DNA of 64,000 nucleotides, from positions 160,001 through 224,000 of the forward strand of contig CAXXGJ010000006.1 of assembly GCA_963677895.2 (NCBI GenBank). Direction: 5' to 3'. The DNA is from Treponemataceae bacterium (GTDB lineage: Bacteria > Spirochaetota > Spirochaetia > Treponematales > Rectinemataceae). Made by a program: the position numbers. This document shows, one piece after another, positions 44,901-47,900 of the stretch (position 1 is its first letter; the number at the start of each line of letters is the position of its first letter).

Positions 44901-47900
44901 ACAAGGCCGCGCACATGATCGACATCCTGCCTGGTGATATCCTGGTTGCCGAAGATCGCGTAGAACCCTGGCTTTTCCGAGTCTTCGAGAACTTGGGTGA
45001 GCAGGATCATGAAGGGGGTTTTCTTGCCTTCCCGTATATCCGATCCCACAGGCTTGCCAAGGTCTTCCTCGTCGCCGAACAGACCCAGATAATCGTCCTG
45101 AAGCTGAAAAAGAACGCCCAGATTCAGGCCGAGCGCCTCCAGCGCGGGGATCGCGTCGGCTCTTTCGGCGACGAGGGCTCCGGCGCAGAGGGGAAGGCAT
45201 ATCGTATAGCGGGCCGTCTTGTAGGTGTAAACCTCGATAGTTTGCTCGAGGGCGGGGATTTCCTGGCGGGAGCCGAGGCGCACGTCCTTTATCTGCGCTA
45301 GGCAGACGTCGACAAGTTCGCGCGAAAAGAGCTTTCCAATTTCATGACCAAAACTTGTAATTAGTTGCCAGGCAATGAAATAATAGATATCTCCAGCGCA
45401 TATTCCGATAGCTTCGCCAAGCTCGGCGGCGCTATGGTCGAGGTTGGCTGGGTCGGCGCCGCCGACATGCGCCGCTTCAATCCTTTCGAAAGTCTTGTGC
45501 ATGGTGGGTTGGCCGCGCCGCATCTCATCCTTGTCCATTATATCGTCGTGGACGAGGAGGCCGGCCTGGAAGAATTCAAGAGCAGCGGCGAGCCTCAGGG
45601 CTTTCTCGCGGCGCAGGGTGCTCTCCGTCTCGCCGGCCGAAAAGAGTTCGGAGCTCAGGCAGGCCAGAATGCCCCTCAGCATTTTCCCCGAGAGGATATA
45701 GTCTTTCATGACGGAGAATATCCGTCCCGAATCGCCGGAAAAGCCCGCGCAAGCGGTGCCGCTCGCGAATAGCTGCGCTTCTATGGCTTCGGCGATGTCC
45801 CTTCGCGCCGCGGATGAATACTCGGAGAGTGTCATTGTGCCCCTTTCGTCGTATGTTCTCTCTTTTATAACACGAGTTTCTGGGAGGGGACAGGGTTGGC
45901 CGACTTTTTCTCCCGCGGAAAAACCGGGGCGGGAGATGCGCGAGCCGATTAAAAGCATAAAAAAGACCTTCAGGCGGGCCTGAAGGTCTTCTGGACTTCG
46001 CTTTCAGCGCGGCGCCAGGATAGACGCCGATTTTCAGCTTTCAGGCCACGTAGGCTTCGAGCTTCTCCATCACTTCGGGAACGGAAATCTTCTTGAGCGC
46101 GGCTTTTTCGATCTGGCGGATCCTCTCCTTGGTGAGGTGCATCCTGTCGCCGATTTCCTTGAGGCTCATCGGACGTCTTCCGTTGATGCCGAAGCGATAT
46201 TCTATGACCTGGCGTTCCTTGATGCTCAGCGTTTCGAGCACCGTGTTCAGGTCATCCTTTAGATTCAACGCGTAAGCGTAGTTTTCAGGAGACTGGTAAA
46301 GCGTGTTCTCCACGAAGTCGCCCACGACGCTGGCGTTTCTCTCGTCGTAAACCGGGCTGTCGAGGGAGACGAGATCCCTGGATACGGCGATGATGTCGGC
46401 CACGTGCTCGGGGTCCATGTTGAGGTAGGCGGCGACTTCCCTGATCTCGGCGTCTTCCGAAATGCCCTCGAAGCCTTTGCGCGCTTTTTCGATCTGCACG
46501 AGTTCGTTGGCGCGGTTGAGGGGGAGGCGGATCATCCTGCTCTTCTCGCAGATGGCTTTGAGAATAGCCTGGCGGATCCACCAGACGGCGTAGGAGATGA
46601 AGTGGAAACCCTTCGAGACATCGTAGCGTTCAATCGCGTTCATCAGGCCAATATTTCCTTCGGAGATGAGATCCGAGAGGGGCATGCCCTGATTCTGGTA
46701 CTTTTTGGCGACATTGACGACGAATCGAAGATTGGATTTAACCAGCATGTCCTTGGCGAACTTGTCGCCGGCCGCTGCCTTCAGCGCATATTCATTTTCC
46801 TTCTCTCTCGAGAGGAGGGGGATCTTATTGATTTCTTTGAGATAGATAGAGAGGACGTTTTCGTCGGAATCGCTGGAACTGAACATCATGTTGGAACCAC
46901 TTCTTTTGCTCATTGTCTTCTCTCCTTGATACTAAGTATATTGCAACATTCGTGCCAAAAACCTACGTCAAAGAGCGAAACTTGATACAAATTAATATCT
47001 TATTACTGTGTATATATTTATGTATATGGTGTCGACGGAGCGGCCAGGGCCGTATAAAAGAATTCCGGAGCACTACGCGTCGGATTTACGTCAGATCGTG
47101 TCAAAATGACATGCTGCTCTTTGCGGAGGCTAAAACTGTGTGGTTTTGAAACGGTTCTACAATAAAAGCCAGGGATCCGTATCGCTTTTCGGCTTTAGAG
47201 TTCACCGAGGCCGTGGACGCGGCCGCAGCAGCGGCCAAAAGGAAGACCCGAACCGCAGATGCAGCGCTGCGAGGGGTCGGCTCGCTGTATCTGGTCCCTG
47301 CCGAAGCTTGCCTTGATAGTCCTGTGTTGTCCTTCGCCGAGCCCGAAGCTGGGAAAGCTAGGTTTGAAATGACGAAAGAAAACCAGTTTCTCGCAGCAGT
47401 CATGATCTTCGAGGAGAGAGCCAGCCTTAATATTCTTCCAGGCGTCGATGACAATCCGCAGAACCGTCTCGCGTTCCTGGAAGGAATCGAAGCGGCTTCG
47501 CGGCTTTTTTGACAGATAAGACGCCATCTGGATATTCGTGAAAGCGTAAAAATCGTCGAGTTCGGCGGTAGGCTGCTTTTGCATGCCGTACCCGTTGATG
47601 TTTCGGAGATAGACGCGGCGCGCGTAGCCTCTCCGCCTCAGCTTTTGGGCCGAGGAAAGGCTTTTTATCGCGAGTTCGCGTTTATCGAGCCTGAAAAGGG
47701 CTACCGAAAGCCAATAAAGCGCGCGGGACAGTTCCTCGGAACAGGAGGGCGGCGTGGCCTCGACCGCCAGGCGCAACGTCTCTATCGCTTTATCTGGTCT
47801 GTGGAGGGCCAGTTCCCTAAGGCCTTTGCGAAGCAACTGCGCCTCATTTTGTCTTTCTTGTTTATCCATATATATGCTGCTGATAAAAATATACAAAGGG

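What a model noticed while it worked through the whole genome (the two positions that open the first line are those of the whole stretch)
46041..46965. Sigma54 drives two RpoS-like alternative sigma factors: a Borrelia-type RpoN cascade conserved across Treponematales
Two RpoS-like sigma70 genes (g00644 here, and g01110 at C17:21456 after a LysM-M23 gene) each carry a consensus -24/-12 sigma54 promoter 35-60 nt before the start codon. The promoter is kept in nearly all orthologs across the order, so the RpoN-to-RpoS cascade known from Borrelia is a shared, here duplicated, feature of treponemes.
Evidence so far: Call 165, 170: TTGGCACGAATGTTGCA before g00644, ATGGCACGGCGTTTGCT before g01110; motif at the same place in 25 of 26 g00644 orthologs (6 families, call 167) and 20 of 20 g01110 orthologs; background 59 of 3203 genes. 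rpoN and several GAFTGA-type activators are present.
(Added by a program. Inside this text positions count along the whole contig: contig position 160,001 is position 1 of the stretch shown here. "Call 12" and the like, gene names such as g00115 and contig names such as C1 are that model's own, and its searches are not shown. The text may have been shortened before it was handed on; [...] marks where a part breaks off. The agent that wrote the report below was given it as the finding of a first reader that could run no searches.)

Follow-up and report, generated by a model that had tools for sequence, protein, structure and literature searches.

The report
Two separate sigma-54 switches in spirochetes
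Spirochetes carry two different back-up transcription factors, each behind a sigma-54 promoter with its own enhancer and probably its own activator, so the virulence switch of the Lyme disease bacterium looks like a rewired remnant of an older, widespread circuit.

Summary
The -24/-12 site is real: the strict consensus occurs 4 times in the 3.5-Mb genome, twice before these two sigma genes. It is kept in 63 of 64 and 72 of 73 orthologs fetched from the order. The reading needs correcting. The window gene is the ortholog of T. denticola TDE0937 and T. pallidum sigma-43, not of Borrelia RpoS (AU p=0.004). The C17 gene is the RpoS ortholog (100/99). Both lineages span much of the phylum, so this is no treponeme duplication. 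Each has its own enhancer: TGTGTCA-N3-TGACACA pairs 40 bp apart (102 of 116) versus TGTAT-N8-ATACA (88 of 114). Gene adjacency and co-loss point to Rrp2 for the first and a GAF-domain activator for the second. The two Borrelia genomes lack that activator and enhancer. In the T. denticola group a changed RpoN box goes with AG-for-GG promoters. No transcript start was mapped. The scan noted the promoter and first enhancer before on other DNA (2 notes). New variant of a known kind.

The parts
46041..46913 (-). Alternative sigma-70-family factor, 290 aa ('sigma A-branch' here); ortholog of T. denticola TDE0937 and T. pallidum sigma-43; not Borrelia RpoS
   Evidence: (below RpoS and RpoD cut-offs)
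46942..46958 (-). -24/-12 sigma-54 promoter TTGGCACGAATGTTGCA; predicted +1 near 46931 (inferred from -12 numbering, not mapped)
46921..46926 (-). Ribosome-binding site AAGGAG, 7 nt before the ATG
   Evidence: read directly from the sequence
47097..47113 (.). Proximal enhancer palindrome (UAS_A, consensus TGTGTCA-N3-TGACACA), about 140 nt upstream of the promoter
47137..47153 (.). Distal enhancer site (UAS_A), 40 bp from the proximal one
   Evidence: 40-bp spacing in 64 site pairs among orthologs
46975..47035 (.). AT-rich tract between enhancer and promoter; possible bending segment
   Evidence: seen in the sequence; role is inference, not tested
45961..45992 (-). Intrinsic-terminator-like hairpin with T run right after the sigma gene; suggests a one-gene transcript

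Best explanation
Two parallel sigma-54 to sigma-70 cascades, old in spirochetes. Branch A (this window): sigma-54 polymerase sits on the -24/-12 site; an activator bound to two TGTGTCA-N3-TGACACA sites 40 bp apart loops over and opens the promoter, making a stress-type alternative sigma factor. The activator is most likely the Hk2-partnered response regulator Rrp2. Branch B (C17:21456): the true ortholog of Borrelia RpoS has its own sigma-54 promoter and a different enhancer, TGTAT-N8-ATACA, most likely read by the GAF-AAA-HTH activator encoded after the ribosomal protein S1-type gene (C38:196720). Shown here: sites, enhancers, conservation, gene families, co-occurrence. Inferred: that sigma-54 transcribes from these sites (about 0.9), Rrp2 for branch A (about 0.7), the GAF activator for branch B (about 0.7), a stress role for the A-branch sigma (about 0.6).
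For: Site rarity and position. Conservation 63 of 64 and 72 of 73 in the order against 2 of 22 and 0 of 57 in control clades. The same scan finds a site before E. coli rpoH, where a sigma-54 link is noted in PMC3162934. Enhancers are clade-specific: UAS_A 102 of 116 A versus 10 of 114 B, shuffles 0-3; UAS_B 88 of 114 B versus 4 of 116 A, shuffles 1-5. Promoter and UAS_A go together: 102 both, 31 neither, 15 site only, 3 UAS only of 151. Rrp2: it is the only PF00158 match at E<=1e-30 in G229, which has the A gene with site and UAS_A; its gene lies 236-361 bp upstream of the A gene in 12 genomes of 4 families; 9 families without a clear Rrp2 have A genes with neither site nor UAS. GAF activator: among 61 genomes of family f2, 43 have it intact and have the B gene, 17 have neither, 1 disagrees. 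T. denticola group: first Arg of the RpoN box is Val or Pro in 7 of 7 and 11 of 14 sites read AG for GG, seen in no other site. TDE0937 is induced 2.8, 21.8 and 14-fold by heat, oxygen and osmotic downshift, along with Hsp20 TDE1029 (PMC2965109), whose promoter region also has the site and UAS_A.
Against: No transcript start, binding or mutant data. The enhancer matrices were trained on the clades they score. Kin are not independent: the f2 co-loss spans 5 genera, and B-gene absence was judged by match count, not by tree. T. pallidum has Rrp2 and the site but no UAS_A. Family f22 has Rrp2 but no site; f30 has Rrp2 and site but no UAS_A. Outside the class the GAF link is loose: f25, f33, f37, f39, f44 and f11 have UAS_B-like sites without a clear ortholog, and f18 and f30 have the activator but no B gene was found. 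G238 has Leu at the same RpoN-box position yet keeps GG. A 9-of-12 sigma-70-like match overlaps the window site. TDE0070, the B gene, fell 1.8-fold in one condition and was not stress-induced.
Confidence: 0.72

Rival explanations
1. One reading: one Borrelia-type RpoN-to-RpoS cascade, duplicated in treponemes and run by one activator.
For: Both genes have the site. A single clade of both lineages is not rejected (AU p=0.14). Rrp2 drives rpoS in Borrelia (PMC3037356).
Against: Borrelia RpoS groups only with the C17 clade. The two genes are 36% identical and differ in region 2.4/3.0 and 4.2 signatures. Both clades span many families outside the order. Their enhancers differ.
Confidence: 0.08
2. 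Sigma-54 drives both genes, but the palindromes are read by other regulators (a repressor, or other activators) than the two named.
For: T. pallidum and Borrelia keep Rrp2 without UAS_A at their promoters. UAS_B-like sites occur where no clear GAF ortholog was found. This genome has 11 activators.
Against: G229 has a single activator. rrp2 sits directly upstream of the A gene in 12 genomes. Joint loss in 17 of 61 f2 genomes.
Confidence: 0.15
3. The conserved element is not a working sigma-54 promoter: it is a sigma-70 -35 look-alike, or a site where sigma-54 binds and represses.
For: TTGGCA-18-TAGTAT scores 9 of 12 as a sigma-70 promoter at the same place. No start site is mapped.
Against: GG and GC are kept at fixed spacing while the spacer varies. 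Upstream palindromes at enhancer distance are lost together with the site. The -24 base shifts in the lineage whose RpoN box changed. The orthologous site in Borrelia is an activating promoter (PMC3037356).
Confidence: 0.05

Closest known systems
Borrelia burgdorferi Rrp2-RpoN-RpoS pathway
   Same: Sigma-54 promoter before a sigma-70-family gene. The C17 gene is the ortholog of Borrelia RpoS. Rrp2 and rpoN are present.
   Different: The window gene is a second lineage not found in the two Borrelia genomes searched. Both branches here have enhancer palindromes; the two Borrelia rpoS promoters have no UAS_B, in line with the reported lack of specific Rrp2 binding upstream of rpoS (PMC3037356, passages). 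The likely activator of the RpoS ortholog here is a GAF protein not found in those two genomes.
T. denticola TDE0937 / T. pallidum sigma-43 (sigA)
   Same: Orthologs of the window gene: 60% and 42% identity, primer match, source names.
   Different: PMC2965109 describes TDE0937 as a stress-induced sigma and says RpoS homologs are missing in T. denticola; the passages read give no promoter type. Here TDE0070 is the Borrelia-RpoS ortholog.
E. coli rpoH sigma-54 promoter
   Same: Sigma-54 site before an alternative sigma-70-family gene; found by the same scan.
   Different: Different sigma lineage. PMC3162934 (2011) says experimental evidence for that link was not yet reported.
Short primary sigma factors of Bacteroidota, Gemmatimonadota and kin
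   Same: Nearest non-spirochete matches, 39-45% identity; share the FISYAVWW...RLPLN signature with the window gene.
   Different: No sigma-54 site in 57 loci. Sister status is weak: FastTree 0.85, unresolved in the careful tree. The spirochete keeps a separate full-length RpoD.
Proteobacterial nlpD-rpoS
   Same: The C17 gene and the third paralog (C21) both follow LysM-M23 genes, as E. coli rpoS follows nlpD.
   Different: The window gene has no such neighbour and scores 247.9 against a cut-off of 378.7 on TIGR02394. E. coli RpoS joins none of the three clades.

Membership tests
Sigma-54-dependent promoter | GG and GC at -24/-12 spacing within TGGCAC-N5-TTGC | tested here: met
Sigma-54-dependent promoter | Intergenic, right strand, short distance before a start codon, conserved in orthologs | tested here: met
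   29 nt from GC to ATG; 63 of 64 in the order
Sigma-54-dependent promoter | rpoN and AAA+ activators in the genome | tested here: met
Sigma-54-dependent promoter | Upstream activator sites 80-250 bp away | tested here: met
   paired palindromes; binding itself not tested
Sigma-54-dependent promoter | Transcript start about 12 nt after the GC and loss of transcript without rpoN | not testable with these tools
   only assembled RNA contigs were available
Borrelia RpoS (BB0771) orthologs: window gene | Groups with Borrelia RpoS in a tree | tested here: not met
   (AU p=0.004)
Borrelia RpoS (BB0771) orthologs: C17 gene | Groups with Borrelia RpoS; shares P.RKE.L and S.ETVRQIE signatures | tested here: met
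   100/99; signatures; identity of the Borrelia protein
Borrelia Rrp2-RpoN-RpoS pathway | Rrp2 is the activator of the rpoS ortholog and works without an upstream site | tested here: inconclusive
   UAS_B and co-loss with a GAF activator argue against it here; no direct test
Proteobacterial RpoS (TIGR02394) | Score above the curated cut-off (window gene) | tested here: not met
   247.9 against 378.7 bits
Primary sigma RpoD (TIGR02393) | Score above cut-off; long N-terminal part | tested here: not met
   239.5 against 354 bits; 290 aa; a separate long RpoD is on C38
Bacteroidota-type short primary sigma | Sister position in tree and TAnnTTTG-type promoters (motif recalled) | tested here: inconclusive
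   tree unresolved; motif not enriched, 29 sense, 27 antisense, 37-52 shuffled of 1,368 upstream regions
Duplicate pair (A and B as one clade) | A and B lineages form one clade | tested here: inconclusive
   not in the best tree; AU p=0.14

The most novel reading that the evidence does not exclude
An ancestral spirochete had two sigma-54 branches: Rrp2 acting through paired TGTGTCA-N3-TGACACA sites on a stress sigma factor, and a GAF-domain activator acting through TGTAT-N8-ATACA on the RpoS ortholog. Borrelia lost the first sigma and the second activator and re-routed Rrp2 to rpoS, which would explain why Rrp2 works there without an upstream site and needs BosR. T. pallidum kept the opposite half (sigma-43 and tpf1 behind sigma-54 sites). 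The T. denticola group evolved a natural RpoN-box variant that accepts AG at -24.
Probability: 0.5. Interest if true: 0.86.

Novelty: new variant of a known kind. Interest (0 to 1): 0.74.

Why it matters
Borrelia's RpoN-RpoS switch is written of as something the Lyme spirochete 'appropriated', and the origin of its RpoS is disputed (PMC6719511, passages). These data place it in a lineage shared by many spirochete families and name its counterpart in T. denticola (TDE0070), a species said to lack RpoS. A 2025 paper calls T. denticola Rrp2 unstudied (PMC12070737, passage); here it gets a candidate binding site and targets that can be tested at once in a genetically tractable species. PMC2965109 asks what induces peroxiredoxin TDE0011 (38.6-fold under oxygen) without OxyR; a sigma-54 site precedes it. 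For T. pallidum, sigma-54 gets two candidate targets, sigma-43 and tpf1. The RpoN-box variant is a natural case of altered -24 recognition, a position otherwise explored by engineering (PMC12096077).

Tried and rejected
rpoN co-loss as a test: useless, since rpoN was found in 148 of 151 phylum genomes. RNA evidence: 4 runs laid, all assembled contigs; one 350-nt contig with 6 differences ends at 46918 and none covers 46931-47152, but contigs cannot show a start, so this is not counted as support. Bacteroidota-type promoter motif as a clue to the regulon: not enriched. UAS_A pattern in Borrelia: one intergenic match shared by G247 and G216, with no sigma-54 site nearby; it also reads as an extended -10 element, so it is left as a weak lead. 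UAS_B next to the GAF activator gene as autoregulation: the nearer site falls inside an upstream gene, rejected. CIRCE (recalled motif) for the TTAGCAC variant: the second half-site is absent, rejected. A sigma-54 site for ferritin TDE0449: seen before a dps-prx pair in G015 but not shown in G107, so not claimed. A Fisher test on the f2 co-loss (p=3e-14) overstates, as kin are not independent. Papers asked for and not held: Studholme and Buck 2000 (two ids), PMC101881, PMC7946783, PMC2962928. No structure prediction or complex job was run.

Full report
OBSERVATION. The window ORF 46041-46913 (minus strand, 290 aa) is a sigma-70-family protein scoring below the curated cut-offs for both RpoS and RpoD. 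TTGGCACGAATGTTGCA lies at 46942-46958, with 29 nt from the GC to the ATG. A terminator-like hairpin follows the gene. The genome holds five other sigma-70-family loci by tblastn: long RpoD (C38), a FliA-like gene (C38), the C17 gene, the C21 gene and an apparently interrupted one on C30. The strict consensus occurs 4 times in the genome, twice before the window gene and the C17 gene. A matrix trained on 169 sites, leaving out this genome and most of its family, ranks both among 10 of 2,189 roughly called genes at 16 bits or more; my gene caller is crude and missed genes. I call the window gene A, the C17 gene B and the C21 gene C.

SAMPLE. I searched 121 genomes of the order, 151 of the phylum and 61 of family f2 and fetched only part of the matches: top hits plus hand-picked regions across families. 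With 80 named loci and three E. coli genes this gave 367 records; one short ORF and six identical proteins were dropped, leaving 360.

CONSERVATION. With the first G left free: A has the site in 63 of 64 loci from the order, 4 of 4 from other orders of the class, 31 of 62 from the rest of the phylum and 18 of 22 named spirochete loci. B has it in 72 of 73, 4 of 4 and 38 of 41. Controls: C 2 of 22, non-spirochete relatives 0 of 57. Under the stricter scan, RpoD and E. coli RpoS score 0 of 7 and E. coli rpoH has a site. rpoN was found in 148 of 151 phylum genomes.

WHICH GENE IS WHICH. In a 62-sequence IQ-TREE analysis Borrelia RpoS nests in clade B (100/99), clade A has 92/86 and deeper nodes are open. 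Forcing Borrelia RpoS with A is rejected (p=0.004); forcing A and B together is not (p=0.14). A and B are 36% identical, and their promoter-reading regions differ: A has FISYAVWW, RLPLNR and TKERIRQIE, B has FSTYA.WW, P.RKE.L and S.ETVRQIE like Borrelia. Published primers place TDE0937 inside A orthologs and TDE0068 two genes before the B ortholog, making it TDE0070. Source names confirm T. denticola, T. pallidum sigma-43, TpF1 and Borrelia RpoS for the proteins used. With these queries the two Borrelia genomes show only RpoD and B, and the T. pallidum genome RpoD, A and FliA.

TWO ENHANCERS. An earlier scan note mentioned a two-site enhancer, so I searched upstream regions of the 116 A and 114 B loci that had a site and at least 250 nt upstream. 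A carries TGTGTCA-N3-TGACACA (102 of 116; B 10 of 114; shuffles 0-3), with 64 site pairs 40 bp apart and 10 at 41. B carries TGTAT-N8-ATACA (88 of 114; A 4 of 116; shuffles 1-5). The matrices were trained on their own clades, so the cross-clade counts and the spacing are the fairer evidence. In the window the sites are 47097-47113 and 47137-47153. Across 151 A loci, 102 have promoter and enhancer, 31 neither, 15 promoter only and 3 enhancer only. Borrelia rpoS lacks UAS_B (0 of 2) and T. pallidum A lacks UAS_A. UAS_A also precedes Hsp20 genes that have sigma-54 sites in this genome, two T. denticola-group genomes and G011.

ACTIVATORS (inferred). Rrp2 for A: G229 has one activator, the Rrp2 ortholog, with A, its site and UAS_A; rrp2 lies 236-361 bp upstream of A on the same strand in 12 genomes of 4 families; nine families without a clear Rrp2 have A genes lacking both elements. 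Exceptions are f22, f30, T. pallidum and a small contig of G161. GAF-AAA-HTH protein for B (C38:196720 here; domains of the T. denticola ortholog): of 61 f2 genomes, 44 have it intact and 17 have it truncated, weak or not found. All 17 show at most two sigma matches with the B query, as does only one of the 44, a 94%-complete draft. This spans five genera, with within-genus contrasts in two. B absence was judged by match count. Outside the class the link is loose.

NATURAL RPON VARIANT. In genus g13 (T. denticola group) the RpoN box reads AVRT or APRT for ARRT in 7 of 7 genomes examined, and 11 of 14 A and B sites read TTAGCA; no other site in the set does. R455 and R456 are the proposed base-reading residues (PMC12096077, section 13; PMC7175178, passages). 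This is one lineage, three g13 A sites keep GG, and G238 with Leu there keeps GG, so relaxed specificity is the most that can be said.

LIKELY ROLE. In G107 the exact pattern has 11 matches; 4 are intergenic with a gene downstream: peroxiredoxin, B, A and Hsp20. In the T. pallidum genome 2 of 10 are so placed: sigma-43 and tpf1; the reversed control gave 7 there, so only position supports them. PMC2965109 (passages and section 15) reports TDE0937 and TDE1029 among 39 genes induced by all three stresses and TDE0011 up 38.6-fold under oxygen, while TDE0070 was not induced. A stress role for branch A is therefore likely; the regulons of both sigmas are unknown.

LITERATURE. Nine full-text searches (one search was on RpoN-box residues) listed no paper reporting sigma-54 control of treponemal sigma factors; I saw listings and, for ten papers, passages or sections (PMC2965109, PMC12655853, PMC3037356, PMC12096077, PMC7175178, PMC3162934, PMC9481697, PMC12070737, PMC11411949, PMC6719511); no supplements were read. 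The library lacks most subscription papers. From memory, Studholme and Buck (2000) scanned small genomes for sigma-54 sites and predicted the Borrelia rpoS one; they may have listed T. pallidum sites too, and I could not read it. Sarkar et al. 2010 was also not held. Two earlier scan notes on other genomes reached the promoter, the A enhancer and, in one, the point that A is not Borrelia RpoS; they are not independent support. The B enhancer, the activator assignments and the RpoN variant were not in the lines shown to me.

VERDICT. Observation confirmed; interpretation partly right. Most likely two parallel, separately wired sigma-54 cascades, old in spirochetes, with Borrelia and T. pallidum each keeping a different half. 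New variant of a known kind; interest 0.74.

Noticed in passing
G000 C18:578500-584056 (rpoN at 580653-582068): Second rpoN lies in a contig tail where GC drops from about 0.59 to 0.39-0.50; probably contamination or a chimeric join. The copy at C2:196641 sits beside hpf-, hprK- and HPr-like genes.
   Followed up: partly
G216 (Borrelia-type genome): rpoN matches in 4 pieces, best E 2e-14, while the rpoS promoter site is kept; PMC3162934 notes a Borrelia species without detectable rpoN.
   Followed up: no
L432 (G027:C1:1104091-1107106): The 311-aa annotation of T. pallidum sigma-43 would start inside the -12 element; the 293 or 296-aa starts fit the promoter better.
   Followed up: partly
L190, L191, L192 (family f22): A-clade genes have TTGTACATGATCTTGCAA-like sequences upstream, GT in place of GG, with a canonical RpoN box; decayed or variant site.
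   Followed up: partly
L157, L158, L176 (families f19, f23): Upstream palindrome has inverted halves, TGACA-N3-TGTCA, before A genes that keep the sigma-54 site.
   Followed up: no
L247, L249-L252, L339, L340, L343, L345 (families f13, f20, f31): B genes carry a third palindrome type, about TGTGTAA-N3-TTACACA, often paired 31-34 bp apart, in families without a clear Rrp2.
   Followed up: no
L474 and L479, position 1501-1517: One UAS_A-like intergenic match shared by both Borrelia genomes, no sigma-54 site nearby; may be an extended -10 promoter.
   Followed up: partly
G000 C30:11376-12073: A further sigma-70-family gene in two pieces in an AT-rich region.
   Followed up: no
G000 C21:63390, site 45 nt upstream: The third paralog has a weak, unconserved sigma-54-like sequence (8.9 bits) and follows a LysM-M23 gene like E. 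coli rpoS.
   Followed up: partly
G073 C8, C26, C78; f16 genomes: A-clade gene in three copies in G073; second copies in f16 genomes (L147, L151, L155) lack the site.
   Followed up: no
window 38042-44524: dnaA-like gene divergent from gyrB-gyrA-like genes just left of the finding; the gap at about 39550-40020 may hold the replication origin (by sequence resemblance).
   Followed up: no
window 47195-47896: Upstream gene on the same strand, 233 aa with weak TPR and SEC-C matches.
   Followed up: no
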